A DNA stretch of 32,000 bases from NCBI GenBank assembly GCA_963704755.1, contig OY969938.1, positions 2,190,001 to 2,222,000 on the forward strand. The letters are read 5' to 3'. This DNA comes from an uncultured Chloroflexia bacterium (GTDB lineage: Bacteria > Chloroflexota > Anaerolineae > Anaerolineales > Anaerolineaceae). The translations under genes were made by a program, and so were the position numbers. This document shows, one piece after another, positions 15,423 to 31,168 of this stretch. The number at the start of each line of letters is the position of its first letter. The first letter of the stretch is position 1. The notes beneath the pieces are model-generated. The model did no database searches, was not told the DNA's origin, and worked only from the letters and a program-made list of their open reading frames with translations.

Positions 15423-15536
15423 GTACACAGACAAATTTCTCTAAAATCTCCAAAATGTGAAGAAGATCTCCGCAGAGAGCAGACATAGGAACTATCCTTC
15501 AAATTTGTGTTCATCTGTGGCAACTGCTCAGCCTAT

Positions 15537-15605
15537 CGGGAAAGAAAGCCGAATTTGAGGTGATTGCGGTCGAAGACTTCGCCCCCGCAAACACCTCAAA
15601 TTCGG
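15537..15605 (-). terminator. Intrinsic terminator after the DUF4870-like gene run
   Basis: 14-bp stem ccgaatttgaggtg/cacctcaaattcgg with an inner tgcgg/ccgca helix, followed on the minus strand by CTTTCTTTCC. Confidence 0.65.
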
Positions 15606-15643
15606 GGACTTTCTAAATTGCGCCTGAGTAGTGTAATTAAAGC

Positions 15644-16105
15644 TCATTCATCCATTTTTAGCCAGGAATGAACCCAGCCGCCCAGCAACGGGTAACGGAA
15701 TTCGCCCTTTTTGATGGTCTGCCAGCCGCCCACCAGGGCCAGGATGTAGTAGGCCGGCACCACGATCAAGCCAACGAACAAATTGAGCAGAAAAATGAGC
15801 ACGGCCGGGATGTAGAACATTCCGCTCAAGCCCATGTTATTGGTGATCCCCGAGAACATGACGCCGAAAAAGACGGCCCCAAACCAGCCGGCCAGCAAAA
15901 AGAAGATGTAAACCAGGCCCAGGACCACGCCAATCCCCTGGTAGATCAGAGCCTGCAGCGCCTGAAAGCGCAGCCGCGGCGAGCGGTCTTTTTGGGTGAG
16001 GTACACGATCAGGGGAACGATCAGGCCAAAAAAACGCAGCAGCACGCTGAAGTGGCATAAAGCCGCCATCCAGTTATCTTCACGGGTTTCATCGATCTCA
16101 GACAT
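15644..16105 (-). CDS. DUF4870-like small membrane protein
   Basis: 153 aa. N-terminal AALCHFSVLL..GLIVPLIVYLTQKDRSPRLRFQALQALIYQ pattern and 3-4 TM segments. Its ATG overlaps the upstream gene stop by 8 nt (ATGTCTGA). Confidence 0.8.
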   Translation of the reverse strand: MSEIDETREDNWMAALCHFSVLLRFFGLIVPLIVYLTQKDRSPRLRFQALQALIYQGIGVVLGLVYIFFLLAGWFGAVFFGVMFSGITNNMGLSGMFYIPAVLIFLLNLFVGLIVVPAYYILALVGGWQTIKKGEFRYPLLGGWVHSWLKMDE

Positions 16106-16583
16106 CGGCCACCTCCACCGCTGCAGCGGGTGTCCGCAGCAGGTATTTTTCCAGGCGCGGCCCCCAAATGGGGTAATGAAAATTTTTGCCGGTCAGGCAG
16201 AGGATGCCCCCAACCAACCCACCCAGGACGTACAAAGCGCTCATCCCAAAAATGAAGAGGAATCCCAGGGCTTCACCGCCAACGATGACCCAGGGCATGG
16301 CGTTCTGCGAGAGGGTTGCCGTCAGCGCAGCACCCAGGGCAACCATCGCCGCAATGAACCCGACCCCAAGGATGGTCACCAGCCAGTAGAACAGCATAAA
16401 CAAGAGCTGGTAGGCCAACGCCTGTAGAGATTGAAAGGTGGTGTAGGTCGTTTTCTTGCGCTGAGTGACCCAAATCAACAGCGGCACCAGGAACCCAAAC
16501 GGGAGAATGATCGCAGCATGCGCGGCAGCCGCCAGCAGCTTTTCATCGGATGATTCCGGCTGGAACCGAGATGGTTCGTTCAT
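16098..16583 (-). CDS. DUF4870-like small membrane protein (paralog)
   Basis: Trimmed to the ATG at 16583, which has an AGGAGGGG RBS. The product MNEPSRFQPESSDEKLLAAAAHAAIILPFGFLVPLLIWVTQRKKTTYTTFQSLQALAYQ matches the family pattern. The 309-aa ORF-track form overlaps the next gene out of frame. Confidence 0.8.
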   Translation of the reverse strand: MNEPSRFQPESSDEKLLAAAAHAAIILPFGFLVPLLIWVTQRKKTTYTTFQSLQALAYQLLFMLFYWLVTILGVGFIAAMVALGAALTATLSQNAMPWVIVGGEALGFLFIFGMSALYVLGGLVGGILCLTGKNFHYPIWGPRLEKYLLRTPAAAVEVADV

Positions 16584-16606
16584 AACAAATGTCCCCTCCT
16601 TTATAT

Positions 16607-17512
16607 TTACCGTCGGATGTAAAAAAGGTGGCTGCGCTTGCTCAACCACTTTCCCAGAAACGGATACAAATAATCGCGCCCACACAGAAAACGAGCCGTG
16701 GCGACGATGGGCAGCGTTTGAAAGACCGGCACGGCCAGGATGATCACAAAAGCACACAGCAGCGCCAGCAGGCCGAAGATCGCCGTGGCCAACCCGGCCG
16801 CCCCGCCAAATTCGCCCCGGTTGAGCGCCAGGGTGACCCCACCCATGGCCAGCAGCCAGGCCACGCTGATGGTGGCCAACAGTTCCACCACCAACCCGGC
16901 GGCCTGATAAAGGGCCGCCTGCTGGGCCTGGAAGCGCAGAAAAGCGTCCTCGTCCTTGCGCGAAACGTTCCACACCAGGATGCAGCCGGCTAATCCGGAC
17001 AGCCCGTTGAAGAGCCCCAGGTGACACAAGGAAGCCAGGCAGTTCTGCTCGTGTTCGTCCGGCTGTGCGTCCAGGTAGGCGGCCAGCCGGTTACCCAGCC
17101 AGGGGTAGCGGTAGCTGCGCCCCTGCCGGCAGGCAACGCCCGCAGCGATGCCCAGTCCGACGAAAGCCAGGCTGACCAGCAGGTACAGCCCGGCGATGTA
17201 GAGCAGGTACGGCCCCAGCAGCCCGGTCAATGACCGGGGCTCTCCGCCCGGAAACGCCCTGAGTTGTCCATCGACCAGCAGCCAGACCAGTTCGACAATT
17301 GCCAGGATCAGCCCGGCCAGCAGCGCCGCTACCGGCTGGATCACTTGCAGGGCCGCGGCCTGCAACAACTGGAAGCGCAGCCCACCCGAGCGCCGGTGGC
17401 CAATCGTCCACAGGATCAGCGGAGCCAGCAAGCCCAACCCCGGCAGCAGGATCGAAAGATGCCCCAGGAAAGCCAGGCTGCGGTCAGTGGAGGGAAGTGA
17501 GTCAGAATTCAT
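16607..17512 (-). CDS. Membrane protein with two tandem DUF4870-like modules
   Basis: 301 aa. The module signature occurs twice: LAFLGHLSILLPGLGLLAPLILWTIGHRRSGGLRFQLLQAAALQ and LASLCHLGLFNGLSGLAGCILVWNVSRKDEDAFLRFQAQQAALYQ. Confidence 0.8.
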   Translation of the reverse strand: MNSDSLPSTDRSLAFLGHLSILLPGLGLLAPLILWTIGHRRSGGLRFQLLQAAALQVIQPVAALLAGLILAIVELVWLLVDGQLRAFPGGEPRSLTGLLGPYLLYIAGLYLLVSLAFVGLGIAAGVACRQGRSYRYPWLGNRLAAYLDAQPDEHEQNCLASLCHLGLFNGLSGLAGCILVWNVSRKDEDAFLRFQAQQAALYQAAGLVVELLATISVAWLLAMGGVTLALNRGEFGGAAGLATAIFGLLALLCAFVIILAVPVFQTLPIVATARFLCGRDYLYPFLGKWLSKRSHLFYIRR

Positions 17513-17530
17513 AGCAATTAAGAATTAAAC

Positions 17531-17905
17531 CACGGAGGCACGGAGTTCACGGAGAAGAATTTTTGGAATGAGGCCCAGGTTAACAAGCAATCCTTTTAAT
17601 TTCACTTGATTTGTGCATGCAAAGAATCAAGAGTTTTAACCACGGAGACACAGAGTAACGGAGGCACGGAGTTCACGGAGAAGAATTTTTGGAATGAGGC
17701 CCAGGTTAACAAGCAATCCTTTTAATTTCACTTGATTTGTGCATGCAAAGAATCAAGAGTTTTAACCACGGAGACACAGAGTACACGGAGAAGTATTTTA
17801 ATATAGGGCTCAAGTAAACAAGCAATCCTATTGATTCTCCTGGTTTATGCAGGCAAAGGATGCGGAGATTTTAACCACGGAGGCACGAAGGGCACGGAGA
17901 AGAAC
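17531..17905. repeat. Direct repeats (two identical 125-nt copies, period 126, plus degenerate copies) carrying fossil GxxExxY gene 3-prime ends
   Basis: 17531-17655 and 17657-17781 are identical, and a diverged third copy follows. On the minus strand each unit encodes ...EIKRIAC-stop. This resembles the real gene end ...GIKRIVC-stop at 17920. Confidence 0.85.
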
Positions 17906-17919
17906 ATGAGTTTTTCGAG

Positions 17920-18294
17920 TTAACAAACGATCCTTTTGATTCCTTTAGTCAGCACAGGCACGTTGAAATTTATGATCAGGCCAACTTTGCAGCCGGTGAG
18001 TTTCAGGTAGGTTAACAATTGTGCCTCATGGATTGGCTGGATCGTCTCGACTGTTTTCAGTTCAACGACAACCTGTTGGTCGACTACGAAGTCCATCCGA
18101 TAGCCAAAATCAAGCCGGGCGCCTTTGTATACCACAGGTAAGGTCTTTTCGCGTTCAAAGGGAATTTCCAATAATGAAAGTTCTCTTGCCAGGCAGATTT
18201 GATAAGCCGATTCCAATAACCCTGGCCCTAGTACCTTATGCACTTCAATAGCGGCGCCAATGATTTGCCCTGTCAATTCTTCAGCGTATAGCAT
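17920..18294 (-). CDS. GxxExxY protein (PD-(D/E)XK nuclease-like family)
   Basis: 124 aa with the signature GLLESAY, VDFVVD-type ([14 protein letters not shown]) and the LLTYLK..GLIINF tail typical of the family. Confidence 0.85.
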
Positions 18295-20705: not shown

Positions 20706-21443
20706 TCACCCGCCGTTCAAAGCCGCATTGATCGCCTTGGAAATGTCATCGAAGGAGGGGATGTAGTTGGGGCCGGCGCTGCTGACAACCATCTTGCCAT
20801 CCACAAAAATACCGGGAGTGGGCGGCACACCCAGGGCATCACCCGCCGTGACGTCTTTTTGAATCTCAGCGGCATAGGTGTCGGCCGCGAAGCACTTATT
20901 GAAATCGGTCATGTTCAGGCCAATATCCTGGGCAAAGGCGGTCAAACGGTCTTTGGTGTACGAACCGGCATTCTCGCCCAGCCAGTTGGCGAAAGCGATC
21001 GCGTGGAAGTCCCAGAACTTACCCTGCGCTGCCGCGCACATGGCCGCGTTGGCCGCATCGTGCGATTCGCCCTGGCCGCCATCGATGAAGGGATAGAAAT
21101 GGAAGGTGTAATAAACCTTACCGGTATCTACAAAGGTCTGGATGACCTGTGGCTCGAGGCTACGCGAATAGGATAAACAGCCTGAGCATTGAAAATCTTC
21201 CCAAACGTCCATTTTGACCGTCGCATTCGGATCCCCGACACTGGTCTGGTTGACCGGTACAGCGAAAGAAGGCGGTGTGATCTGGACGATCGAACTGGTA
21301 TCCGGACTGGCCGGCTTTTAACTCGTCACAATCAGCACCACTGCGAGCGCTATGGCGACGACCGCCACAGAAAAGATAACGATGAGCCGGTTGCGGCTCT
21401 TTTGTTTTTGAACACGTTTGCGATATTCCTGACGTTTGCTCAT
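20706..21443 (-). pseudogene. Membrane-anchored DsbA-family thiol:disulfide oxidoreductase interrupted by one in-frame TAA
   Basis: The ATG at 21443 encodes MSKRQEYRKRVQKQKSRNRLIVIFSVAVVAIALAVVLIVTS (TM anchor). A TAA follows at 21318-21320. The same frame then continues KPASPDTSSIVQITPPSFAVPVNQTSVGDPNATVKMDVWEDFQCSGC... through the thioredoxin-fold ORF 20706-21212 (CSGC active site). An extended -10 (TGTATAAT; the TATAAT hexamer is the complement of 21491-21496) lies upstream. Confidence 0.7.
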
Positions 21444-21747: not shown

Positions 21748-23049
21748 CTATGATGAGGGGGTCTCCGACTGGGCCGGCTCGGGGGTGTTGCTGGCCAAAT
21801 CGGGGGAAGTGGGGGTCGGCTGCGGACTGGTCGGCGTGGGCGGCGGGCTGGTTGGGGCCACGGTCTCGGTTGGTGCCGCGGTCCAGGCCGGCGGCGTGGG
21901 AGTCGCTACGCTAAAGGTGGCCGTCGCTGCGCCTTCCTGGGTAGCGGTGGGCGTGCGCGTGCCGGTGGGAGGTGCTGTGGGCGTGGCGGGATGATCCCCC
22001 GGCAGAGTCAACATCACCCGGATATCCGGCCCGTACGGACAGGGGCTGCTGCCCGGGCAGGATGGGCTGCCGGGCTGCCAGCCGGTGTAGTTATCGATCC
22101 GCACCTGTACCTGCACCAGGTAGTGCTGGTCGCTTTGGGGAGTGAAAGTCAGGTCGAAGTAGTTGGTCATAACGTCTCCGGCCGGCATGGGCGAAGCGCT
22201 CGACCAATTCCAGGCGCTCGAGACGGCTTGCAGCGGCTGTCCGTTGCTGTCGGCGCTGAAGACCTGGCCTGTCAGGGTCAGTCCTTCGGCCGGCAGAACG
22301 CCGGAATTGAGCAGTTGCAAGTGGCTGGACACGTCCATATCCTGCCCGTTCGGGCCGACCGTGGCGTCTAGCAGTGCCTTGATTTCGGCCCCAGGGATGA
22401 GCGGCGCCGTTGGCGTGGCCAATGACAGGGTCGGCAGCAGGCTCGGGCTGTTGGCATCCAAAACGAATTCCGCTTGCGCGGCGGCGTCGGAATCGCAGGA
22501 GCCCTCGCTGCTGCAATCCGCCGACAAAACCCCAACGGCGGGTACCGCATTGCTGATGCTCACCTGGGCAATGTTGCGATAGCGGGTCACGCCGGCCCGC
22601 GGATTAAAGTCGAATTCGTAAGGGTAGCAGCGCATTCCGCCCGGATCGACCTGCTGATCGGGATTAATGATCTTGCTGGCCCCATCCAATGGTGTGTACA
22701 GGCCGCTCTCGTCCAGGTATTCCACCTGGTCGAGAATATTCAGGCTGCGGGTGCCAAATTCGCCGGTGTTGTGGACGCAAATTTCACCGCGGACCACGGC
22801 CGGCAAATTTTCCGACGCCATCCCGTTGCCTGTTTTCCAATAAGCCATGACCGATTTTTGGGCCTCGATGGTGGTATTGCCCCCGGCATTGGAGCTGTCA
22901 AGCTGGCCGGTGCTCACCTGGCCAGAAGTACCCAACATATGGGCCCACCAGGTATTCGCCACCGGGATCGAGATCAAAGCCACGCCAATCACCACAGCCG
23001 CCACGGCCACGTGCAGATAATGCGTTTGCAAGAAATTCTTCAGGTTCAC
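21748..23049 (-). CDS. Cluster A large secreted protein with SipW-type-like signal motif and Pro/Thr-rich tail (paralog of 26191-27546)
   Basis: The GTG at 23049 overlaps the peptidase stop (GTGA). N-terminal h-region then PVANTWWAHMLGTSGQVSTG. Blocks shared with the paralog: GEICV.NTG, LNILDQ.EYLD.SG.Y.PLDGASK, RYRNIAQVSI.N, VRIDNYTGW.PG.P.CPGS.PCP.GPD.R. The last roughly 85 aa are P/T/A-rich. Confidence 0.8.
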   Translation of the reverse strand: MNLKNFLQTHYLHVAVAAVVIGVALISIPVANTWWAHMLGTSGQVSTGQLDSSNAGGNTTIEAQKSVMAYWKTGNGMASENLPAVVRGEICVHNTGEFGTRSLNILDQVEYLDESGLYTPLDGASKIINPDQQVDPGGMRCYPYEFDFNPRAGVTRYRNIAQVSISNAVPAVGVLSADCSSEGSCDSDAAAQAEFVLDANSPSLLPTLSLATPTAPLIPGAEIKALLDATVGPNGQDMDVSSHLQLLNSGVLPAEGLTLTGQVFSADSNGQPLQAVSSAWNWSSASPMPAGDVMTNYFDLTFTPQSDQHYLVQVQVRIDNYTGWQPGSPSCPGSSPCPYGPDIRVMLTLPGDHPATPTAPPTGTRTPTATQEGAATATFSVATPTPPAWTAAPTETVAPTSPPPTPTSPQPTPTSPDLASNTPEPAQSETPSS

Positions 23050-24269
23050 CGCGCTCCTCGCAACCAATCCAGGAACCAGCGGAAGAGAATACTCACCCAG
23101 CCAATCTTGGGAATCTTCAGGATAACCTTGCCCTCGTATGCAGATGCCGGCACAGGCTCGTCTTCAACGTTGTTGTTATCACCACGGGTGATGAAAGTAA
23201 GCTGCCCGTTGTCATTATAGATCTGCTCGACCCGGTGGACGATTAAATCGCCATCCCGCTGGTAACGGATGATATCGCCGACCTTGACACTGGTCACCGC
23301 CACGTTGCTGGTGACCACCACATCGCCGGCATAGAGAGTTGGATTCATGCTGACCCCGCTCATCAAGAAGGGCCGCACACCGAACAGGCCGGTGTTGAAC
23401 CAGAGCAAAATAATCGCAAATACCGCGACGATGATCCAACCCAGCCAGCTCCCCTGACCGGCCGCCGGTTTTTGATTCGCTGCCGCTGGTTTCGTTTTCG
23501 GGTCGGCAGCCGGCGCGATCCAGATATTCAGGAGCGGGATGGCCAGGGCGGGGATAACCGTCTTGACGAATGCCGTCACCACCCAGGGCAGTTGCGGCAG
23601 GACGGGCGGCAGCCACTCACTTGCCGCCAGGGTAACCCGGTAAATAATAGCCGGCCAGGGCCCTACGGTAAGCACCATAAAAGTGGCCAGCATTTGTTCG
23701 GCCAGGGTGGGCAGGCCGTATTTTCCAACGAATTGGAAAAGACCTGCGACACTACTCACTGACCCAAATTGATTAGCCGGTAAAGCCAGTAAGGTAAAAG
23801 AGAATGAAAACAGGATGAGGGCTAAAAAAGCGTGGCCCTTCCCAAAACATTGTACCAGGAAGGCACGCGTGAATTCAAATGCCAGAATTGGGGTAACCGC
23901 ATAAATCAAATTGCCCAACAAGACCCAGCCGCTGTGGCTGTAGGGCGAGTGGCCGAAGCCATAGATGGCCCCGGCGCCCATCACCGCCAGGCTTTGGACC
24001 AACCCGATCAAAAAGGCGATCAGCAAAAAGCCGGCCTGGACGGTCTGCTTTCCGGCCAGGTAGGTCCAGATGAAGTAAGAAAGCCCGGCCAGCAGCAGCC
24101 ATAAGGCCGGCTGAATGAGATACAGGTCCCAATCAGATGGAAAAACGCCGGGCAGGGCGAAATTAACCAGCACATACACCACCACCAGCTCTAAAACGGC
24201 CAGGATCCACAGCCAGTTGAGCTTCTGGGATCCTGGATGAGGCACAACTCGATTCTCATTCCCAAGCAT
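23046..24269 (-). CDS. Cluster A ER/archaeal-type (SipW-like) signal peptidase I fused to an N-terminal polytopic membrane domain
   Basis: ATG at 24269 with GGAGGA 6 nt upstream. The C-terminal roughly 150 aa carry SGVSMNPTLYAGDVV, IVHRV and TRGDNNNVEDEP (Ser/His S26B-type motifs). The N-terminal roughly 250 aa have about 7 TM helices with a conserved GFGHSPY motif. Confidence 0.85.
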   Translation of the reverse strand: MLGNENRVVPHPGSQKLNWLWILAVLELVVVYVLVNFALPGVFPSDWDLYLIQPALWLLLAGLSYFIWTYLAGKQTVQAGFLLIAFLIGLVQSLAVMGAGAIYGFGHSPYSHSGWVLLGNLIYAVTPILAFEFTRAFLVQCFGKGHAFLALILFSFSFTLLALPANQFGSVSSVAGLFQFVGKYGLPTLAEQMLATFMVLTVGPWPAIIYRVTLAASEWLPPVLPQLPWVVTAFVKTVIPALAIPLLNIWIAPAADPKTKPAAANQKPAAGQGSWLGWIIVAVFAIILLWFNTGLFGVRPFLMSGVSMNPTLYAGDVVVTSNVAVTSVKVGDIIRYQRDGDLIVHRVEQIYNDNGQLTFITRGDNNNVEDEPVPASAYEGKVILKIPKIGWVSILFRWFLDWLRGAR

Positions 24270-24284
24270 TAATATCCTCCCGTT

Positions 24285-24311
24285 GTGGAGGGGGGCCGGG
24301 CTCCCCTCCAC
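24285..24311 (-). promoter_or_regulatory. 9-bp GC hairpin in the gap between the small-protein genes and the peptidase gene (cluster A)
   Basis: gtggagggg-(9 nt)-cccctccac lies directly upstream of the peptidase RBS. There is no U-run. Confidence 0.4.
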
Positions 24312-24325
24312 AGGCTGTTACAGGA

Positions 24326-24937
24326 TCAAGGTGAGGTCAGGGTAGTCAGACAACTTGCATAGTCCATCGGATGGTTCCATTGACTCAGGCAGGAATGCAC
24401 CGAAAACTGGTAATCCGTCAATTCTAGCGCGCCATCGTTGACCTGGACAACCATCTGGCTGCTGGATCCGTCTTGGGGGACGAATTCGCCATGGACGTTG
24501 TCCTTGAAGGTGACGGTGAGCTCGTTGCAGGCAATCGATTTGGTCCCAGTTGTGGGTGAACCTGTTACGGTGCAGCCGGTCAGGTTCCCGGCCGAAATCC
24601 CGTTTCCATTGACGACCCAGGGCAGCGTCCCGGTATTCAGGAAGTCAAAAGTACACTTCACCGAATAGCCGGGGTAGCCGTTGACGATGTTGAAGTGGAT
24701 GGTCGAATGATCCGCCGAGTCAATCGTTACAACCGTTGAACCGATGTCTTGCCCTTCCGGCTCCGTTTCGGTACAGGAATAGCCCGTCCAACTGGCGTCG
24801 AGATTGCCGGTCTGGACGACGCCGCTGACCTGCAACTGGTCGGTCCAGAAGCCATAGGCCAGGCCCATGCCGCCCAGGGTGGCCAGGAGGATCAGCGCTG
24901 CGGTGCCCATTAACCAGTGTGTGGATCGGTTCAACAT
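24326..24937 (-). CDS. Cluster A TasA/camelysin-like small secreted protein 2 (Cys-rich)
   Basis: ATG at 24937 with GAGGAA RBS. Signal region ...LATLGGMGLAYGFWTDQLQVSGVVQTGNLDASW. Core VNGYPGYSVKCTFDFLNTGTLP. Six Cys. Orthologous-looking to the frameshifted 29504-30065. Confidence 0.8.
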   Translation of the reverse strand: MLNRSTHWLMGTAALILLATLGGMGLAYGFWTDQLQVSGVVQTGNLDASWTGYSCTETEPEGQDIGSTVVTIDSADHSTIHFNIVNGYPGYSVKCTFDFLNTGTLPWVVNGNGISAGNLTGCTVTGSPTTGTKSIACNELTVTFKDNVHGEFVPQDGSSSQMVVQVNDGALELTDYQFSVHSCLSQWNHPMDYASCLTTLTSP

Positions 24938-25001
24938 GATGTTCCTCAATTCTTCTTCAAGGTTTTTATGATTCCCTGAAACAAGATCGAATCTGAAGGA
25001 A

Positions 25002-25550
25002 TTACGGGTTAACCTGTACGAAGGTCAGGGTGATGGTTCCAGAATACGATGCCCCTTCGGCTGCAGTGGCCGTTGGAGTAAGGGTGATCTCGCCGGTGAC
25101 CGATGCACCATCTTCAATGACGTCCACATTAGGAGCAGTGAAACCGGGCGCTTCAAAATCAAGGGCGGCCTTGCTTGCCAGGTCCGTCGGGTCAAATACA
25201 ACACTTGACAATTTAACAGGGATGGTGCCATTATTTGCGATGGTGCCGGTCAAGGTGCACGTGTAGCCGGGATAGGCATTCTCGATCAAAACCTCGACGC
25301 GGTCGGAATCATTCGCCTCCGGATCACTGGACTGATCTACAATATTTGCCGAGCAAGTACCGACCTCCTCCATGCCGGCAGTCTCGTTGTCAGTAGCTGT
25401 GACCTCGGTGAAATGGACATTCAACGTCCCGGTTGATGCAGTTCCATGGATCTCAAGGGAATCCGTCCAGGCCCCGTAGGCGATGGCCATGGTGGCCAGC
25501 ACAAACAGCGCCAGCACCGTGATCAACAGAGTTTGCTTTTTTGAAAACAT
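25002..25550 (-). CDS. Cluster A TasA/camelysin-like small secreted protein 1
   Basis: ATG at 25550 with GGAGGA RBS. MFSKKQTLLITVLALFVLATMAIAYGAWTDSLEIHGTASTGTLNVHF. Core ENAYPGYTCTLTGTIANNGTIPVK. Motif spacing matches B. subtilis TasA as I recall it (AAFND..ASGTLDL; LKPGD....FENNGSL). Confidence 0.8.
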   Translation of the reverse strand: MFSKKQTLLITVLALFVLATMAIAYGAWTDSLEIHGTASTGTLNVHFTEVTATDNETAGMEEVGTCSANIVDQSSDPEANDSDRVEVLIENAYPGYTCTLTGTIANNGTIPVKLSSVVFDPTDLASKAALDFEAPGFTAPNVDVIEDGASVTGEITLTPTATAAEGASYSGTITLTFVQVNP

Positions 25551-26003
25551 GATTTAATCCTCCAAAAAAATCTTGTAAAACAGATTGGAGGGTGGCATAA
25601 TCACAGTAGTGTAGGGTGAGTGATTACGCCACCCATGCTAGGGGCCCTGGCAACCTCAATTTGCCGGGGCCTGTTTTTTAATGGTCGGCCCTATCGAAAC
25701 GGATGGATCCCTCCTTTCACCCGCTGCTCTTCCAACTCAGATCCCTCCGAGGAAGAAACACGGATCGAAAACCTCCACTCCCCGGCGGGCCTGATCTGTT
25801 GTGCGCCGTTATGTTGGCCACGCGTTGTATTTTTCTGTGTTATCAGCCGGGATTTCGATTCTGGCCGGTTCTGTTTTTTCGCAAGGCGTTAAAACAAAAA
25901 ACCAGCCACTTTCGTGGCCGGTTTCGCCATTTGCTCTGCGCGAGGTAATTCCCTTATGGAAAGGCGATCCCCCGTTTCCCCCGCGCTTCATCGCATCCAC
26001 GTA
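25551..26003 (-). promoter_or_regulatory. Long (about 453-nt) 5-prime leader of cluster A with conserved structured ends
   Basis: The 5-prime roughly 110 nt (25891-26003) and the 3-prime roughly 120 nt (25551-25675) are near-identical to the cluster B leader, while the middle is diverged. The 3-prime end holds a 15-bp hairpin (25590-25604 / 25620-25634) and an anti-SD CCCTCCAA (complement of 25585-25592) able to pair with the SD (complement of 25558-25565). Confidence 0.6.
25891..26003 (-). ncRNA. Candidate structured RNA element (riboswitch-like leader or small RNA) ending in an intrinsic terminator
   Basis: It starts just downstream of the promoter. Helix GCGCGGGG (complement of 25979-25986) pairs with CCUCGCGC (complement of 25938-25945), and one base pair covaries in the cluster B copy. 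An internal UUCC-loop-GGAA hairpin is present. It ends in CCGGCCAC-GAAA-GUGGCUGG plus U6 (25891-25921). Confidence 0.5.
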
Positions 26004-26010
26004 TAAATTT

Positions 26011-26038
26011 ATTATAGGTATAGATCGCGATTTGTCAA
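26011..26038 (-). promoter_or_regulatory. Near-consensus sigma70 promoter of cluster A
   Basis: On the minus strand: TTGACA (26038-26033), 16-nt spacer, TATAAT (26016-26011). Confidence 0.65.
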
Positions 26039-26190: not shown

Positions 26191-27546
26191 CTAGCCGGCC
26201 GGTGTGGCCGTCGGCGGGGGCGTCGCTGGGGTAGCGCTTGCCGGCGCCGGTGCAGTCGGCGTGGGCAGCGGATCGGTCGGCGCGGGTGTATCCGTCGGGG
26301 CAGGCGTAGGGTCAGCCGCAGTTGGGCTGGGTGTGACTGGGATATCCGTGGCCGCCTCAGCGGTCGCTGTGGGGCAGACAGTGGTCGCATCCGCGGTCGC
26401 GGTGGGGCTGTCCGCCGGTTGCGGAGGGGTCGGGGTTTCGGCCGGTCCGGCCGGCGTAGGAGCGAGCGTATCCGTCTGGCCGGGCTCCGACGTGGCCGTG
26501 GGAGTTGGGGTCGCCTCTCCCGGCAGGACCAACGCAATGCGCACGTCCGGTCCATTGGGGCAGGGGTCACTGCCCGGGCAGGCCGGGTCGCCCGGCAGCC
26601 AGCCGGTGTAATTGTCGATGCGCACCTGGGCCTGCAACAGGTAATGCTGGCCGGGTTGAGGGCTAAAGTGGATGAGGAAGTAATTATCCAGGGTATCGCC
26701 CGCGTTCAAAGGCGAATCGCTCGACCATTCCCAGGGTTCCGAGACGGCCTGGTCCGGCTTGCCATCCGCACCCGCGCTGAACAGTTGGGCCTTCACCGCC
26801 AAGCCTTCGGCCGGCAGTACGCCGGTATTGTGCAGTTGCAAGTGCCCGGACACATCCAGCCCATCCGCAACCGGGTCGATGTCGGCTTCCAGTTGAGCTT
26901 CGATCTCGGCCGCCGGTACGGAGGTACCCGTAAGGGCTGGGGCGGTGGGAGTCGGCAGCGGGCTCGGGGCAGCCAGCTCGAAATCTGCCTGGGCCATGGC
27001 TCCGTAGGCGCATTCGCCCGCGCTGCCGCAGTCGGCCGACTCGATGCCGGCGGTGGCGTGGTTGCGGATGCTCACCTGGGCGATATTGCGGTACTGTCTT
27101 ATGCTCTCCGGGGGGCGAAATTCGAACTCATACGGGAAGCAGGTTTGCTGGCCGGCCTTGACTTGCTGATCCGGTTGGATATTTTTGCTGGCGCCATCCA
27201 GGGGGACGTATTGGCCGCTCCCGTCCAGGTATTCGAGCTGGTCGAGAATGTTTAATCCCTGGGTGGCATACTTGCCGGTATTGCTGACACAAATTTCTCC
27301 GCTGACCACCGCTGTTCCGGTTTCAGCCGTCCCGTCGGCGCCGGCTTTCCAATGCGCCTTGGCGGATTTTTGCGCCTGAATGGAGGTATTGCCCTGTTGC
27401 GACCAATCGCCGGAAGCCGCACTACCGGTGACCCCCAGTATCTCGGTCCAAAACGCATTCCCGATCGGCAGGGTCACTAACGCGCCTGCGGCCAAAACTA
27501 TCATGGCCAGGATATTCAGCATCCTCTGGCGAATGAACTTTTTCAC
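26191..27546 (-). CDS. Cluster B large secreted protein with SipW-type-like signal motif and Pro/Thr-rich tail
   Basis: The GTG at 27546 overlaps the peptidase stop (GTGA), as in cluster A. N-terminal LPIGNAFWTEILGVTGSAASG. It shares the conserved blocks listed for 21748-23049. The last roughly 110 aa are P/T/A-rich. Confidence 0.8.
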   Translation of the reverse strand: MKKFIRQRMLNILAMIVLAAGALVTLPIGNAFWTEILGVTGSAASGDWSQQGNTSIQAQKSAKAHWKAGADGTAETGTAVVSGEICVSNTGKYATQGLNILDQLEYLDGSGQYVPLDGASKNIQPDQQVKAGQQTCFPYEFEFRPPESIRQYRNIAQVSIRNHATAGIESADCGSAGECAYGAMAQADFELAAPSPLPTPTAPALTGTSVPAAEIEAQLEADIDPVADGLDVSGHLQLHNTGVLPAEGLAVKAQLFSAGADGKPDQAVSEPWEWSSDSPLNAGDTLDNYFLIHFSPQPGQHYLLQAQVRIDNYTGWLPGDPACPGSDPCPNGPDVRIALVLPGEATPTPTATSEPGQTDTLAPTPAGPAETPTPPQPADSPTATADATTVCPTATAEAATDIPVTPSPTAADPTPAPTDTPAPTDPLPTPTAPAPASATPATPPPTATPAG

Positions 27547-28805
27547 AGCAGGCTCCCTACCCACCCCAGCGCCTGGCGCAGGTAAATACTCACCCAGCCA
27601 ATTTTCGGAAGGATCAAAATCACTTTCCCTTCGTACCGGCTGGCCGGGAAGGGATCATCATCGACGTTGTTGTTATCCCCGCGGGTAGTAAAGACGATCT
27701 GCCCGCCCTCGTTTTGAATGGCGACCACCCGGTGGACCACATCGATCGTATCCCGCCGAAAGCGGATGATATCCCCTACCTGGATGGTTGCGGGCGCCAC
27801 CTGGTCGGTGACCACCACGTCGCCGGTGTAAAGGGTGGGGTTCATGCTCGGCCCGCTCATCAGCGAGGGACGAACCCCTAGAAAGCCGGTATTCAACCAG
27901 ATCAAGAGAACCGCGAAAATGCCGGTCAAAATCCAGGCCAGCGGTGAGGCCGGTTCGTTCGCCTTTTTCTTTTTGGCGGCCAGCTTTTCAGCCGGCTTTT
28001 CAACCGGTTTTTCGGCCGGCGTTTCAGCCGCCGGGTCCGGGCGGTTCAAGACCAGCATGCCCAGGACCGGCACCACCACCCCGACCAAGGCCGCGGCCAT
28101 CCAGGGCAAATCCGGCAAGATGGGCGAGAGCCATTCGAAGGCCTGCAACACTCCCCGGTAGGCGATGCTGGCCAATGGGCCGCCCTCGATCACCAGGGAG
28201 GCCGCCAGCATCAATTCGGCCATCGCCGGGAGCAGGGTTTGCCCGGTGACGCTAAAAGCCGTACTTACCTGGCTTAACTGGGCGTACTGGCCCACCGGGA
28301 TCATCAGCGCCAGGGGCAGCAGCCAGGCCAGCAGGAAACCCCAGGGTTGGCTGCTCTTCCCCACCGATTTGCCCAGGTACCAGCGTCCCATCTCGATGCC
28401 GATCAAGCGGGTGCTGAAGAACCACAGGTTGAGCGCCACCATGGTCGCCTGGCGCGCATAGGGCGAATGTCCAAAACCGAGCAGCAGCCCCAGGATCACG
28501 CCAACCGCTAGTTGAATACCGCCCAGCATAAAACCGGTCAGGACTACGTTCCCCTGGATCAGTTTTAGCCCGGAACGGCCATCGACCTTCGTCAGGCCGA
28601 GCGCCAGCAGGGCCAGGGATATCCACACGATCGGCTGGAGGATGTATAAACTGAGGTCCGCCTGAACCACCGCCGGGAAAGCAAAATTAACCAGGACGAA
28701 TACCAGCCCCATCCAGGCCACCAGGATGAGCCAACCAAAACGCTGCAGCGCCGGTTGAATTTCTTCCAGGAAATGATTTGCCTGCCCCGACTTGATTTTG
28801 TCCAT
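27543..28805 (-). CDS. Cluster B SipW-like signal peptidase I fused to an N-terminal polytopic membrane domain
   Basis: ATG at 28805 with GAGGTG 6 nt upstream. SGPSMNPTLYTGDVVV, VVHRV and TRGDNNNVDDDP. N-terminal roughly 7-TM domain with GFGHSPY. A Lys/Pro/Ala-rich linker precedes the peptidase anchor helix. Confidence 0.85.
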   Translation of the reverse strand: MDKIKSGQANHFLEEIQPALQRFGWLILVAWMGLVFVLVNFAFPAVVQADLSLYILQPIVWISLALLALGLTKVDGRSGLKLIQGNVVLTGFMLGGIQLAVGVILGLLLGFGHSPYARQATMVALNLWFFSTRLIGIEMGRWYLGKSVGKSSQPWGFLLAWLLPLALMIPVGQYAQLSQVSTAFSVTGQTLLPAMAELMLAASLVIEGGPLASIAYRGVLQAFEWLSPILPDLPWMAAALVGVVVPVLGMLVLNRPDPAAETPAEKPVEKPAEKLAAKKKKANEPASPLAWILTGIFAVLLIWLNTGFLGVRPSLMSGPSMNPTLYTGDVVVTDQVAPATIQVGDIIRFRRDTIDVVHRVVAIQNEGGQIVFTTRGDNNNVDDDPFPASRYEGKVILILPKIGWVSIYLRQALGWVGSLL

Positions 28806-28886: not shown

Positions 28887-29447
28887 TTAATGTCTCTTGC
28901 TATTTTTTTGTTCCAGTTTCACCTGGATCGAGAAGGGCAAGTCGATTTTCTCTTTGACCTGGGCTCCCAGGGTCAGGGTCACATGGATTTTCGACCAGCA
29001 CGAAGACGGCAATCGGGAAGGATTCTTGCCCCAGGCGGGGGTAGAACCACAGGGCTGGATGACCTTACCCTGCATCCCTGGACCCTCGACCGCCGTAAGG
29101 ATCAGATCGTGCGGACTACGGTTGATCAGGTTAATTTGATCCACGCCAATCGGAAATTGGCCGGTATTGGCAAAATAAAGGTCGCACTGCAACTGGTAGC
29201 CCGGGTAGGCATTTTCGACCTGGATTCCCAGCGATTTGGCCCCCTGCCTGGAAGAAACCAGCCCCACATCCCAACTGGCCAGCGTGCCGGGCTGGGAAAT
29301 CGAACAAGTCCGGTAAAACCAGACCGCATCGCCCCGGCCCGGATCCAAATTTATACAGGCGTCGGCGGGCTGTGTTTTGAACAGGGTGAGCCCCACGGCG
29401 AGCAGAATAACGATCACAGACAGAAGCGGCAAGAATTTTATGTGCAT
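28887..29447 (-). CDS. Cluster B divergent small protein with the NAYPGY core but no AYGxW signal motif
   Basis: 186 aa. N-terminal anchor MHIKFLPLLSVIVILLAVGLTLF. Core ENAYPGYQLQCDLYFANTGQFPIGV. No obvious SD. No counterpart in cluster A. Confidence 0.65.
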   Translation of the reverse strand: MHIKFLPLLSVIVILLAVGLTLFKTQPADACINLDPGRGDAVWFYRTCSISQPGTLASWDVGLVSSRQGAKSLGIQVENAYPGYQLQCDLYFANTGQFPIGVDQINLINRSPHDLILTAVEGPGMQGKVIQPCGSTPAWGKNPSRLPSSCWSKIHVTLTLGAQVKEKIDLPFSIQVKLEQKNSKRH

Positions 29448-29503: not shown

Positions 29504-30065
29504 TTACCGGCAACTGCTCGCATTCGCTTGCTCGAAGGTGTAATGAATGGCAAAGGTGTAAGAAGCGTTTGTTTCAGCCTGGTCCAATACGGTGACCCGC
29601 ATGTTAGAGCCTTCACTGCCGCCCGGGTTGAATTTGGTGCACAACCCATCTGTCCAAACGACCTTAAGCTGGTCGCAGGTGGCGGTGAAAGTGCCGGTGG
29701 ACATGTCCTCCGGATCGACGACACAACCGGTCAGGTTGCCCTGGTTGAAATCGATATCGTCCAGGTAGACAGGGATCGTCCCGCCAACCTTGAAGTCGGC
29801 TAAGCAGTAGCCCAGGTAGCCGGGATAGGCATTATCTACCGTGACCTGAATGGTGTGCGGATCGGTCTGGCTGCTGCTGATCGTCGCGTATGGCTCGTTA
29901 TCCCCGCAGAAATGATCGATCCAGGCCGCATCGACTTCGCCGGTGGTGACTGTGCCCTGAACAGACAGCGAATTCGGCCCATACGCCATAGGCGACCCCC
30001 AATGTCAGCAGAACCACAACTAACACCAGAGCGGATATCGTTGCCATGCTTTTTGAAATTCTCAT
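29504..30065 (-). pseudogene. Cluster B TasA/camelysin-like small protein 2, disrupted by a 1-nt frameshift
   Basis: The ATG at 30065 (AAGGAG RBS) encodes MRISKSMATISALVLVVVLLTLGVAYGVWAE. The mature part SLSVQGTVTTGEVDAAW...DNAYPGYLGYCLADFKVGGTIP continues in another frame (ORF 29504-29989). The span is 562 nt, i.e. 3n+1. The shift maps to 29969-29972. Confidence 0.7.
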
Positions 30066-30139: not shown

Positions 30140-30673
30140 CTACGGAACAGCCTGCTCGGCCAGCAAAGTGTAGGTGAAGCTGTAACTTTCGTCCATGTGG
30201 CCGGTTTCGGTCGCCGGGATGGTGAAGTTCCAATAAATCCCGCCGCCATAAGTTGCAGCAGCTAAAACGTAATTGCCGCTGGTGCTGATCTGGTTGCCCT
30301 TGGCGTCGGTCAAATACATGGAGAAGAATGGAATTGTGTCCGAAGATGTTTTGACCAATCCGTGGACCTTGGCCGGGATGGAGCTCAAATTATCGATCGC
30401 CGATCCGCCTTCGCAGAAATATCCAGGGTAGCCATTGGAAATGGTGACGGTAATGTCATGGCCGTCTTCCGATAATTGGGCCGCACAGGTCGCCACGCCC
30501 TGGGCATCATCATCGTACCAAAGCGGCATGAATTTGACATCGAAACTGCCGGTGTGGACCGTACCGCCGACGGTGAGGGTCTGTGACCAGGCACCGTAGG
30601 TCAGTCCGAGGGAGGCCAGGCCGATCAGCAGCACAAAGGCCAGGGTGATATGTAAAGTTTTCTTGGAAAACAT
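30140..30673 (-). CDS. Cluster B TasA/camelysin-like small secreted protein 1
   Basis: Trimmed to the ATG at 30673 (GGAGGA RBS). MFSKKTLHITLAFVLLIGLASLGLTYGAWSQTLTVGGTVHTGSFDVKF. Core SNGYPGYFCEGGSAIDNLSSIP. The ORF-track N-terminal extension runs into the leader. Confidence 0.8.
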   Translation of the reverse strand: MFSKKTLHITLAFVLLIGLASLGLTYGAWSQTLTVGGTVHTGSFDVKFMPLWYDDDAQGVATCAAQLSEDGHDITVTISNGYPGYFCEGGSAIDNLSSIPAKVHGLVKTSSDTIPFFSMYLTDAKGNQISTSGNYVLAAATYGGGIYWNFTIPATETGHMDESYSFTYTLLAEQAVP

Positions 30674-31134
30674 GATTAAATCCTCCAGAATAAATGTATT
30701 GTAAAAAGATTTGGAGGGTGGCATAATCACTACAGTGATGCGGTGATGCGATTGCGCCACCCATGTTACCGGCCCTGGCAACCTCAACTTGCCAGGGTCC
30801 CTTTTTTGTCGGCCAGCTTTCCAGTCGAGTAGATCTCCTCTCCTTCCCCGTGGTTCTTCCAGCGCGAACTACTCCGTGGGAGGTACCCGGATTGAACTCC
30901 GCGCTACCAGGCGTGGAAAATGACCCGATCCACACCGGTAGTTTGGCTGTTTGTGCAATTTTGCTTATTTCCGTGCTGAGAGTTTCTGCTCTGGCCGGTT
31001 TTTTCGCTTCGATGCGATTAAAATAAAAAACCAGCCACTTTCGTGGCCGGTTTCGCCATTTGCTCTGTGCGAGGTAATTCCTCTTCGGAAAGGCGATCCC
31101 CCATGTCCCCCGCACTTCATCGCATCCACGTTAT
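30674..31134 (-). promoter_or_regulatory. Long (about 461-nt) 5-prime leader of cluster B, including the second copy of the structured element (31021-31134)
   Basis: Same conserved ends as the cluster A leader. Terminator hairpin 31031-31050 plus U-run 31021-30. Helix GUGCGGGG (complement of 31108-31115) pairs with CCUCGCAC (complement of 31067-31074). Anti-SD CCCTCCAAA faces SD CTGGAGGA. Confidence 0.6.
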
Positions 31135-31140
31135 GAAATC

Positions 31141-31168
31141 ATTATATAAGATTTATTGAAATTGTCAA
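31141..31168 (-). promoter_or_regulatory. Near-consensus sigma70 promoter of cluster B
   Basis: On the minus strand: TTGACA (31168-31163), 16-nt spacer, TATAAT (31146-31141). It sits in a roughly 250-bp AT-rich divergent region. Confidence 0.65.

What the first reader, a model, noticed from the sequence alone, without database searches (positions are those of the whole stretch)
24326..25550. Shared N-terminal processing motif with TasA-like spacing across six proteins
Seen: A1 AIAYGAWTDSLEIHGTASTGTLNV, B1 LTYGAWSQTLTVGGTVHTGSFDV, A2 LAYGFWTDQLQVSGVVQTGNLDA, B2 VAYGVWAE-SLSVQGTVTTGEVDA. A related form occurs in the large proteins: VANTWWAHMLGTSGQVSTG and IGNAFWTEILGVTGSAASG. As I recall the B. 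subtilis TasA N-terminus, it reads ...GGGTWA/AFNDIKSKDATFASGTLDL. The aromatic-x-D to G-T-L-D spacing there is identical to A1 (AWTD + 10 residues + GTLN). The second block, PGY + 9 residues + NNGT in A1, matches TasA PGD + 9 residues + NNGS. This argues for homology and for cleavage near AYG/AW by the adjacent peptidase. The motif could serve as a search key for this family.
Basis: partly seen in the sequence, partly recalled or inferred. Interest (0 to 1): 0.65.

Follow-up and report, generated by a model that had tools for sequence, protein, structure and literature searches.

The report
Donor-strand N-termini of AbpX/TasA-like fibre subunits
The shared N-terminal motif is real, but it is the already-described signal-peptide cleavage site plus "donor strand" of AbpX-type (TasA-superfamily) biofilm-fibre subunits, here in two tandem operons that each carry their own signal peptidase and a c-di-GMP riboswitch.

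Summary
All six quoted N-termini are in the window, on the minus strand. The given coordinates cover only A1 and A2, and B2 reads through only if one extra T is removed. The recalled TasA sequence and both spacings are correct.

The small proteins are clear relatives of Pyrodictium abyssi AbpX (PDB 9sj2; E 1e-16 to 1e-20). AbpX is a TasA-superfamily fibril protein that polymerises by N-terminal donor-strand complementation. Direct similarity to TasA is weak: it covers only the PGx…NNG block, and the N-terminal motif alone scores at noise. Family-wide hits to Pfam Peptidase_M73 (43/149) and NCBIfam TIGR04088, the "SipW-dependent signal peptide" model (66/149), support superfamily kinship.

The motif is best read as a cleavage site (AYG↓xW) followed by the donor strand: aromatic clamp at mature position 2, acidic residue at 4, G-x-L-D at 15–18. 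This register is the same in TasA and AbpX.

The two large proteins carry a weaker version of the motif. They look like TapA-like primers, tips or anchors.

A seventh family member (B3) lacks the motif.

Both operons start with a consensus promoter, a c-di-GMP-II-GAG riboswitch and a terminator. That arrangement recurs in Anaerolineae relatives.

Verdict: a new member of a known kind.

The parts
31141..31168 (-). Promoter of cassette B (TTGACA-16-TATAAT, 12/12 match)
   Evidence: conserved with cassette A
31036..31136 (-). c-di-GMP-II-GAG riboswitch aptamer, cassette B
   Evidence: RF03169, 46.5 bits against a gathering score of 40
31027..31054 (-). Intrinsic terminator overlapping the 3' end of the aptamer (expression platform), cassette B
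30140..30676 (-). B1, fibre subunit (178 aa from MFSKK). Motif LTYG|AWSQTLTVGGTVHTGSFDV at 30536-30604.
   Evidence: 51.5 bits; 161 bits to the family HMM
29504..30065 (-). B2, Cys-rich subunit of the A2 type, interrupted by a +1 frameshift (extra T near 29972). Motif VAYG|VWAE / SLSVQGTVTTGEVDA.
28887..29447 (-). B3, a family member with a conserved core (ENAYPGY..ANTG) but no AYG-W donor-strand motif. It has a basic pI (9.0) and an N-terminal hydrophobic segment followed by ADA|C. Orthologues sit just upstream of the peptidase in related loci.
   Evidence: hhalign 95.5%, E 1.5e-8; 50.8 bits over the core only; pI; L002, L006, L019, L020, L029
27543..28814 (-). Signal peptidase I, cassette B: polytopic N-terminal membrane domain plus an ER/archaeal-type catalytic domain (SGPSMNPT, VHRV, RGDNNNVDD)
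   Evidence: TIGR02228, 81.4 bits against a cutoff of 51.85; Pfam S26; hydrophobic segments
26191..27564 (-). LB, large protein: signal peptide, motif IGNA|FWTEILGVTGSAASG (27409-27465), two beta-sandwich domains and a Pro/Thr-rich tail. Overlaps the peptidase gene by 22 nt.
26011..26038 (-). Promoter of cassette A (TTGACA-16-TATAAT, 12/12 match)
25907..26007 (-). c-di-GMP-II-GAG riboswitch aptamer, cassette A
   Evidence: RF03169, 49.4 bits against 40; canonical RF01786 scores 47.8, below its 53.5 threshold
25898..25925 (-). Intrinsic terminator overlapping the 3' end of the aptamer, cassette A
25002..25550 (-). A1, fibre subunit (182 aa, pI 4.05). Motif AIAYG|AWTDSLEIHGTASTGTLNV at 25416-25487.
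   Evidence: AbpX 9sj2_C E 7e-7 with the single sequence, 1e-16 and 1e-20 with profiles; AF2 model
24326..24949 (-). A2, Cys-rich subunit (6 Cys). Motif LAYG|FWTDQLQVSGVVQTGNLDA at 24794-24862.
23046..24311 (-). Signal peptidase I, cassette A (421 aa; polytopic; SGVSMNPT, VHRV, RGDNNNVED)
   Evidence: TIGR02228, 83.2 bits
21748..23067 (-). LA, large protein: signal peptide, motif VANT|WWAHMLGTSGQVSTG (22906-22962), two beta-sandwich domains (~66-202 and 229-353) and a Pro/Thr-rich tail. 50% identical to LB. Overlaps the peptidase gene by 22 nt.

Best explanation
The window holds two tandem, diverged copies of an AbpX-type (TasA-superfamily) extracellular-fibre operon, probably from an Anaerolineae-like Chloroflexota genome.

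Each copy has this order: sigma-70 promoter, c-di-GMP-II(-GAG) riboswitch with terminator, ~300-nt leader, two or three small acidic subunits, a dedicated polytopic ER/archaeal-type signal peptidase I, and an overlapping gene for a large two-domain protein with a Pro/Thr-rich tail.

The shared motif has two parts. First come the end of the signal peptide and its cleavage site (small residues at -3/-1: A-Y-G|, G-N-A|, A-N-T|). Then come the first ~18 residues of the mature protein.

After export and cleavage by the adjacent peptidase (inferred), the new N-terminus x1-W2-x3-[D/E]4-x-L6-x-[I/V]8-x-G10 would form an amphipathic donor beta-strand. It would insert into the open groove of the next subunit's beta-sandwich. 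W2 would act as the aromatic clamp and the acidic residue 4 (with D18 in G15-x-L17-D18) as a Ca2+ ligand, as shown for AbpX. This would give chaperone-free fibrils for a biofilm matrix.

The large proteins carry the same module. They most likely enter the fibre by donating their strand, acting as a TapA-like primer, tip or anchor (inferred).

B3 keeps the acceptor core but not the donor strand. It could terminate or anchor the opposite end (speculative).

The terminator shares the GGCCAC segment with the 3' side of the aptamer. Ligand binding should therefore prevent termination and switch the operon ON at high c-di-GMP (inferred).
For: **Shown here**
- The motifs are present as quoted.
- A1 and its family match AbpX chains 9sj2_C and 9rhp_A from W2 through the core, with E 7e-7, 1e-16 and 1e-20. 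In the self-complemented crystal construct 9rhp_A, the same peptide GQWSETLSLSATISTG is grafted to the C-terminus.
- W28 is the only invariant column in 149 family representatives.
- The signal peptide and donor region are about twice as conserved as the core: 0.37 and 0.48 mean pairwise identity against 0.25.
- The motif recurs in 114 of 157 representatives with fixed spacing.
- The AF2 model of A1 (pLDDT 79) is a beta-sandwich in which residues 27-44 are unstructured and of low confidence, as reported for the AbpX monomer.
- pI is 4.05-4.6 for the motif-bearing small subunits and the large proteins.
- The peptidases hit TIGR02228 at 81-83 bits and have 7-8 strongly hydrophobic segments by a crude hydropathy scan.
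- The family is large: 4789 representatives at E<=1e-3.
- A peptidase homologue lies within 8 kb in 44 of the 72 motif-found loci. Where the peptidase is present, above all in the Chloroflexota loci, the order is subunits, peptidase, then an overlapping large ORF whose N-terminus scores 7-19 bits against the motif HMM.
- LA and LB score 20.7 and 22.5 bits against the family HMM over the signal peptide and donor strand.
- Superfamily link: Peptidase_M73 is hit by 43/149 members, TIGR04088 by 66/149, and TasA is third in the PDB at E 1e-3.
- Riboswitch, promoter and terminator are present in both cassettes. The same riboswitch variant lies 450-550 nt upstream of the motif in L010, L011, L014, L016, L046, L065 and L072.

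**From the literature**
- AbpX donor strand W2-I12, Trp clamp, E4/D18 Ca2+ ligands, 10-TM dedicated SPase I, homologues in Chloroflexota, and minor, tip and anchor subunits (10.64898/2026.01.04.697558).
- TasA donor strand is residues 28-38, and the TapA N-terminus mimics it (PMC9674648).
Against: - No experimental data exist for these proteins. Cleavage site, polymerisation and Ca2+ dependence are all by analogy, and even the AbpX cleavage site is a prediction.
- Foldseek with the full A1 model (signal helix included) did not retrieve AbpX or TasA; the best E was 3e-3, to unrelated folds.
- Position 4 is Q in B1 and H in LA, and position 18 is N in A1, so the Ca2+ ligands are not all kept.
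- The motif in LA and LB is marginal on its own (E 0.05-0.23). The LA model is of low confidence (pLDDT 55), and Foldseek shows only generic tandem Ig-like similarity.
- The aptamer passes only the GAG-variant model, not canonical c-di-GMP-II. As far as I know, the ligand of that variant has not been shown experimentally.
- B2 is frameshifted, so cassette B may be partly decayed, or the assembly may carry an error.
Confidence: 0.8

Rival explanations
1. This is the first reader's reading: the conserved stretch is only a recognition and processing signal for the dedicated signal peptidase, with no structural role in the mature protein.
For: - A dedicated peptidase is encoded in both cassettes and in 44 of the 72 motif-found loci.
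- The signal peptide itself is unusually conserved, even MFSKK.
- TIGR04088 models this region as a 'SipW-dependent-type signal peptide'.
Against: - Conservation is highest after the cleavage point (0.48 against 0.37) and extends 18 residues into the mature protein. Signal peptidases I read mainly positions -3/-1.
- The homologous residues of AbpX and TasA are seen as inter-subunit donor strands in cryo-EM structures.
- The alternating hydrophobic pattern W2, L6, I/V8 is kept.
- The two roles are not exclusive.
Confidence: 0.1
2. The small proteins are TasA/camelysin-family (Peptidase_M73) members in the strict sense. On this reading they are secreted metalloprotease-like or spore-coat proteins rather than AbpX-type fibrils.
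For: The PGx+9+NNG block aligns to TasA. Relatives give weak Peptidase_M73 hits.
Against: - No window protein hits PF12389 even at E<=1.
- AbpX scores about 55 bits better than TasA.
- The proteins are ~155 aa when mature, like AbpX (163 aa) and unlike TasA (234 aa).
- They have a ~30-residue insert between the two blocks relative to TasA.
Confidence: 0.05
3. The resemblance of the large proteins' N-termini to the subunit motif is coincidental, arising from generic signal peptides plus low-complexity G/S/T sequence. On this reading they are unrelated secreted proteins that merely share the operon.
For: The motif-only HMM gives E 0.047 and 0.23. hhalign gives 17%. Position 4 is His in LA.
Against: - LA and LB rank directly below the true members among 636 sequences and score 20-22 bits against the full-family HMM.
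- Orthologous ORFs downstream of the peptidase in 10 other loci score 7-19 bits at the same position.
- In L046 the alignment runs on into the core block (ICVTNEG ~ ikNtG).
- The gene overlaps the peptidase gene in both cassettes.
Confidence: 0.1

Closest known systems
AbpX (archaeal bundling protein X) family of Pyrodictium abyssi, in the TasA superfamily (PDB 9sj2, 9rhp; Sleutel et al., bioRxiv 2026, 10.64898/2026.01.04.697558)
   Same: - Significant full-length sequence similarity (E to 1e-20).
- Same size and acidic pI.
- Same N-terminal donor strand register (x1-W2-x-E/D4...G15-x-L17-D18) and the same AYPG...N-x-G-T-I-P core block.
- An adjacent dedicated polytopic TIGR02228-type signal peptidase.
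- Loci with minor subunits and larger tip or anchor proteins.
- The paper already lists Chloroflexota homologues.
   Different: - The host is bacterial (Anaerolineae-like).
- The operon is duplicated in tandem.
- The Ca2+-ligand positions are only partly kept (Q4 in B1, N18 in A1).
- There is a motif-less B3-type subunit.
- Control is by a c-di-GMP-II-GAG riboswitch, which the paper does not mention.
- Nothing here has been tested experimentally.
Bacillus subtilis tapA-sipW-tasA operon (TasA, PDB 8aur/5of1; NCBIfam TIGR04088 'SipW-dependent-type signal peptide')
   Same: - Same logic: an ER-type signal peptidase encoded next to its substrates.
- The mature N-terminus (A1-F2-N-D4...G15-T-L17-D18) is the donor strand.
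- An accessory protein (TapA) carries a look-alike N-terminus.
- The PGx+9+NNG block is shared.
   Different: - Sequence similarity is only marginal, and the window proteins fail both PF12389 and the TIGR04088 cutoff.
- TasA is 80 residues longer. It self-complements as a monomer and lacks the ~30-residue insert.
- SipW has few TM helices, whereas the peptidases here are polytopic.
- TasA is regulated by SinR, not by a riboswitch.
Chaperone-usher pili of Gram-negative bacteria and other archaeal donor-strand filaments (AbpA, Saci_0406 threads, Tafi, cannulae)
   Same: Polymerisation by donor-strand complementation of an incomplete beta-sandwich.
   Different: There is no chaperone or usher. 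The folds and families differ, and no sequence similarity was detected here.

Membership tests
AbpX-like clade of the TasA superfamily | Significant sequence similarity to AbpX across the donor strand and core | tested here: met
   9sj2_C: E 7.1e-7 (A1 alone), 9.9e-17 (13-sequence profile), 1.3e-20 (149-sequence profile). Chain residues 1-146 of 163 are aligned.
AbpX-like clade of the TasA superfamily | [quoted passage not shown] | tested here: met
   W at position 2 in all six proteins. D/E at position 4 in A1, A2, B2 and LB; Q in B1 and H in LA. W28 is invariant in 149 relatives. The mature numbering assumes the predicted cleavage site.
AbpX-like clade of the TasA superfamily | Jelly-roll/beta-sandwich core with an open acceptor groove and an N-terminal extension that is disordered in the monomer | tested here: inconclusive
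   The AF2 model (pLDDT 79) is all-beta with residues 27-44 as low-confidence coil. Foldseek against the PDB did not return AbpX or TasA.
AbpX-like clade of the TasA superfamily | Low pI (~4) and acidic composition | tested here: met
   pI: A1 4.05, A2 4.46, B1 4.62, repaired B2 4.15. B3 is the exception at 9.0.
AbpX-like clade of the TasA superfamily | Adjacent dedicated polytopic (~10 TM) TIGR02228-type signal peptidase I | tested here: met
   TIGR02228 at 83.2 and 81.4 bits. The proteins are 421 and 423 aa, with 7-8 strongly hydrophobic segments before the catalytic domain by a crude hydropathy scan. The exact TM number was not determined.
AbpX-like clade of the TasA superfamily | Ca2+-triggered, chaperone-free polymerisation by donor-strand complementation | not testable with these tools
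   Needs biochemistry, cryo-EM or multimer prediction.
TasA/camelysin family proper (Pfam PF12389 Peptidase_M73; NCBIfam NF046066) | Match to the family model at or above its threshold | tested here: not met
   No window protein hits PF12389 at E<=1. Only 43/149 relatives give weak hits, the best at 5.8e-6. hhalign to TasA covers 32-37 columns only.
SipW-dependent-type signal peptide domain (NCBIfam TIGR04088) | Score at or above the 19-bit cutoff | tested here: not met
   B1 scores 13.2 bits and the other window proteins give no hit. Of 149 relatives, 66 match at E<=1, the best at 2.1e-7. The window motif is therefore a divergent form of this known domain.
ER/archaeal-type signal peptidase I (TIGR02228; SipW-like) | Model hit above cutoff, plus Ser/His/Asp boxes (SxSMxPT, HR, GDNN) | tested here: met
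   83.2 and 81.4 bits against a cutoff of 51.85. SGVSMNPT/SGPSMNPT, VHRV and RGDNNNV are read directly. The SipW equivalog NF046067 is not met (47-48 bits against 190).
c-di-GMP-II riboswitch (Rfam clan CL00127) | Covariance-model score above the gathering threshold | tested here: met
   RF03169 (GAG variant) scores 49.4 and 46.5 against 40. Canonical RF01786 scores 47.8, below its 53.5 threshold. Ligand binding is not testable here.
TapA-like accessory/primer protein | N-terminus mimicking the subunit donor strand, encoded in the same operon as the peptidase and major subunit | tested here: met
   This is a functional analogy only. The LA/LB N-termini match the family HMM at 20.7 and 22.5 bits. 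Sequence similarity to TapA itself was not tested.

The most novel reading that the evidence does not exclude
The c-di-GMP-II-GAG riboswitch variant may be a dedicated switch for AbpX-type matrix-fibre operons in Anaerolineae. This would give a one-step link from second messenger to fibre subunit. In addition, the unusually conserved signal peptide and donor strand may together be read by the polytopic peptidase, which would then act as an assembly platform. That platform would couple cleavage to ordered incorporation of a motif-bearing large primer or tip protein and a motif-less, possibly membrane-retained B3 terminator.
Probability: 0.15. Interest if true: 0.6.

Novelty: new member of a known kind. 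Interest (0 to 1): 0.3.

Why it matters
- It assigns a function and an assembly mechanism to nine unannotated genes in a filamentous-bacteria lineage (Anaerolineae) that dominates anaerobic granules and flocs, where matrix fibres matter for aggregation.
- It shows that the motif is a practical search key across bacteria and archaea.
- It adds a riboswitch-level link between c-di-GMP and TasA-superfamily fibres.
- The central observation, however, repeats what TIGR04088 and the 2026 AbpX study already describe.

Tried and rejected
- **Foldseek of the A1 model against the PDB.** It returned only noise, probably because the model includes the signal helix and an incomplete sandwich. It was not used as evidence either way.
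- **Foldseek of the LA model.** It gave generic tandem Ig-like hits (transglutaminase C-domains, RbmA, Cpe0147) at TM ~0.2, which says no more than 'two beta-sandwiches'.
- **The search for related loci in genome contigs.** The first attempt found nothing, because the pattern YGAW[TS]D[TQ]Lx[IV] was too narrow. With broader alignments the tool found no conserved stretch. It was replaced by a hand-made degenerate DNA pattern.
- **Word-indexed homologue searches.** They gave only 11 hits for A1 and 2-4 for LA. The Pro/Thr tail swamped the word index. The exhaustive search was needed.
- **Literature on the GAG riboswitch variant.** No gene-association or ligand data were found in the held library.
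- **Type IV or archaeal pilin reading.** NCBIfam UpsA hits appear in 25/149 relatives. I rejected this because the similarity lies in the hydrophobic N-terminus only, because cleavage here falls after rather than before the hydrophobic segment, and because the adjacent enzyme is a signal peptidase I, not a prepilin peptidase.
- **Closest relative of the window.** No close relative was found among the fetched loci. Only the peptidase gene aligns, at 66-74% nucleotide identity apart from one short 80% stretch. The organism remains 'Anaerolineae-like' by association (P0160 is labelled Anaerolineales; riboswitch synteny with Bellilinea and Thermanaerothrix).
Full report
**1. What is in the sequence**

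All genes of interest lie on the minus strand and form two tandem cassettes.

Cassette B, from upstream to downstream:
- promoter 31168->31141
- riboswitch 31136->31036
- B1 (30676->30140)
- B2 (30065->29504, frameshifted)
- B3 (29447->28887)
- a 423-aa signal peptidase (28814->27543)
- LB (27564->26191)

Cassette A, from upstream to downstream:
- promoter 26038->26011
- riboswitch 26007->25907
- A1 (25550->25002)
- A2 (24949->24326)
- a 421-aa signal peptidase (24311->23046)
- LA (23067->21748)

The six quoted peptides are present exactly as written, each right after an N-terminal hydrophobic segment. The finding's coordinates cover only A1 and A2.

B2 needs one T removed at GAATTCG (~29972).

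**2. Is it more than chance?**

I built a 28-position HMM of the motif from 110 relatives outside the window. Scored against 633 stop-to-stop segments of the window plus three reference peptides (636 sequences), it gave:

| Sequence | Bits |
|---|---|
| B1 | 51.5 |
| A1 | 47.8 |
| A2 | 44.7 |
| AbpX N-terminus | 27.3 |
| B2 (two halves) | 21.0 and 14.3 |
| LB | 8.5 (E 0.047) |
| LA | 6.3 (E 0.23) |
| next best segment (noise) | <=3.4 |

The full-family HMM, which also models the signal peptide, scores the LA and LB N-termini at 20.7 and 22.5 bits. ORFs at the same position in ten other loci, overlapping the 3' end of the peptidase gene, score 7-19 bits against the motif HMM. The motif is therefore solid in the four small proteins. 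In the two large ones it is weaker but real.

**3. The TasA comparison**

The mature TasA sequence as recalled is identical to PDB chain 8aur_A, which starts AFNDIKSKDATFASGTLDL.

With cleavage placed one residue before the aromatic residue, TasA, AbpX and A1 are colinear over mature residues 1-19:
- TasA: A1-F2-N-D4 … G15-T-L17-D18
- AbpX: Q1-W2-S-E4 … G15-S-L17-D18
- A1: A1-W2-T-D4 … G15-T-L17-N18

Statistically, the direct TasA link is weak:
- The TasA N-terminus scores 2.5-2.8 bits against the motif HMM, which is noise.
- hhalign of the 13-sequence profile against TasA gives 19.7%. The 149-sequence profile gives 79%, E 1.6e-5, but only over the PGx…NNG block.
- HMM searches of the PDB put TasA at E 0.08 and 1e-3.
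- No window protein hits Pfam Peptidase_M73.
- Only B1 touches TIGR04088, at 13.2 bits against a cutoff of 19.

The two blocks are also not jointly colinear. A1 and AbpX have 44-48 residues between GTLx and PGx, where TasA has 16.

At family level the kinship is clear. Peptidase_M73 is the most frequent Pfam hit among 149 relatives (43 members, best E 5.8e-6). TIGR04088, the 'SipW-dependent-type signal peptide' model, is the most frequent NCBIfam hit (66 members, best E 2.1e-7). TIGR04090 and the TasA model also appear.

**4. The closest family is AbpX**

A1 alone hits PDB 9sj2_C (AbpX) at E 7e-7. Profiles reach 1e-16 and 1e-20, aligned from W2 to residue ~146 of 163. The second hit, 9rhp_A, is a self-complemented construct in which the N-terminal peptide GQWSETLSLSATISTG is moved to the C-terminus. 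This marks that peptide as the strand that completes the fold.

The January 2026 preprint on AbpX reports the following:
- AbpX forms Ca2+-dependent, chaperone-free donor-strand-complemented fibrils.
- W2-I12 is the donor strand, W2 is a 'Trp clamp', and E4 and D18 are Ca2+ ligands.
- The family occurs in Thermoproteota, Bacillota and Chloroflexota.
- The associated SPase I is unusual in having ten TM helices.
- Loci often encode minor subunits, tip proteins and anchors.

For TasA, residues 28-38 are the donor strand, and the TapA N-terminus mimics it (PMC9674648).

**5. Features of the window proteins that fit this family**

- W28 is the only invariant column among 149 representatives.
- The signal peptide and donor segment are about twice as conserved as the core. 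Mean pairwise identities are 0.37 and 0.48 against 0.25.
- 114 of 157 representatives carry Y-[GA]-x-W-[TS]-[DE]+10+G-x-[LFV]-x-[VA].
- The AF2 model of A1 (pLDDT 79) is an all-beta sandwich. Residues 27-44 are coil with low confidence, as reported for the AbpX monomer.
- pI is 4.05-4.6 for the motif-bearing small subunits and the large proteins.
- The peptidases hit TIGR02228 at 81-83 bits. They carry SGxSMNPT, VHRV and GDNNN boxes behind a ~290-residue polytopic domain.
- The exhaustive search finds 4789 cluster representatives at E<=1e-3, so this is a large family.

**6. The motif as a search key**

A degenerate DNA version of Y-[GA]-x-W-[TS]-[DE]-x-L-x-[IV]-x-G-x3-T-G found 72 loci in species-representative genomes. 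Of these, 70 encode family members and 44 have a homologous peptidase within 8 kb.

The hosts include:
- Anaerolineae (Bellilinea, Thermanaerothrix), Dehalococcoidia and other Chloroflexota
- Clostridia and Syntrophomonadaceae
- free-living Mycoplasmatota
- the archaeal groups Hadarchaeota, Thermoplasmatales, Bathyarchaeia, Archaeoglobales, Thermoprotei and Nitrososphaeria

The gene order in the Chloroflexota loci is one to five motif-bearing subunits, then an optional motif-less B3-type protein, then the peptidase, then an overlapping large ORF that carries the motif.

**7. The other components**

*B3.* B3 is a family member in its core (hhalign 95.5%; 50.8 bits) but lacks the donor-strand motif. 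It is basic (pI 9.0) and has an AxA|C site followed by a conserved AxWFYRxCS segment. An orthologue is present in L002.

*LA and LB.* These two proteins are 50% identical. The LA model has low confidence (pLDDT 55). It shows a disordered N-terminal extension (residues 33-63), two beta-sandwich domains and a disordered Pro/Thr tail. Foldseek gives only generic tandem Ig-like matches. In L046 the family HMM aligns into the first domain, which suggests that this domain is a diverged subunit fold.

*Proposed roles.* I infer a TapA-like role for LA and LB: strand donation to the first subunit, acting as tip or anchor. B3 may be a groove-only terminator or anchor. This last step is speculative.

**8. 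Regulation**

Both cassettes begin with three elements:
- a perfect TTGACA-16-TATAAT promoter
- an aptamer that passes the Rfam c-di-GMP-II-GAG model (49.4 and 46.5 bits against 40) but not the canonical model (47.8 against 53.5)
- a terminator whose 5' arm (GGCCAC) is part of the 3' side of the aptamer

The two leaders are 84% identical over ~520 nt, although A1 and B1 share only ~31% of residues.

The same variant lies 450-550 nt upstream of the motif in seven Bellilinea, Thermanaerothrix or other Chloroflexota loci. A canonical c-di-GMP-II aptamer lies upstream in one Dehalococcoidia locus. L002 instead has a response regulator upstream and no riboswitch.

I infer an ON switch at high c-di-GMP. 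The AbpX preprint mentions c-di-GMP enzymes near bacterial loci but no riboswitch.

**9. Verdict**

- The conserved stretch is mainly the donor strand, not a processing signal.
- The closest family is AbpX rather than TasA proper.
- The feature is already curated (TIGR04088) and already described (AbpX preprint).
- This is a new, duplicated, riboswitch-controlled member of a known kind.

Noticed in passing
window 25907-26007(-) and 31036-31136(-); also L010, L011, L014, L016, L046, L065, L072: A c-di-GMP-II-GAG variant riboswitch (RF03169), with a consensus promoter and an overlapping terminator, precedes both cassettes. The same variant sits 450-550 nt upstream of the first subunit gene in seven Bellilinea, Thermanaerothrix or other Chloroflexota loci. 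The canonical model RF01786 is just missed (47.8 against 53.5 bits).
   Followed up: partly
window 25573-25680(+) and 30699-30807(+): On the strand opposite the A1 and B1 leaders there is a conserved promoter-like site (TTGTAA-17-CATAAT with TG) followed ~40 nt later by a strong terminator-like hairpin and a T-run. This could be a ~70-nt antisense RNA over the 5' UTR/RBS region, or simply leader structure read on the wrong strand.
   Followed up: no
window ~29965-29980 (B2): A +1 frameshift (extra T in GAATTCG) splits B2 exactly inside the donor strand. It is either a pseudogene or a sequencing/assembly error.
   Followed up: partly
window 28887-29447(-); L002 10578-11135: The B3-type protein has the family core but no donor-strand motif. 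It is basic (pI 9.0) and has an AxA|C site and a conserved AxWFYRxCS segment. It is placed just upstream of the peptidase in several Chloroflexota loci and is absent from cassette A.
   Followed up: partly
window 23046-23067 and 27543-27564: In both cassettes the large-protein gene overlaps the end of the peptidase gene by 22 nt. The same overlap is seen in L002 and other loci. This suggests translational coupling.
   Followed up: no
window 20706-21212(-): A DsbA/thioredoxin-like gene (CSGC motif) lies directly downstream of LA. It may be relevant to the Cys-rich A2, B2, LA and LB proteins, since AbpX has a disulfide.
   Followed up: no
L004 5402-7330 and L068 4211-6349 (Hadarchaeota): The peptidase-bearing stop-to-stop segment (643 and 713 aa) also matches the subunit N-terminal motif (30-32 bits). 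This could be a fusion, or two genes in the same frame.
   Followed up: no
L009, L032, L033, L045, L054, L067 (Mycoplasmatota strains WC44 and zrk6): There are several motif-bearing loci per genome in free-living Mycoplasmatota, a phylum not listed for AbpX homologues in the preprint.
   Followed up: no
window 15000-18000: AT skew is strongly positive (0.19-0.22). The region has two overlapping-frame DUF4870 ORFs (16098-17027 and 16607-17512, minus strand). A PD-(D/E)XK_3 gene lies at 17920-18294.
   Followed up: no
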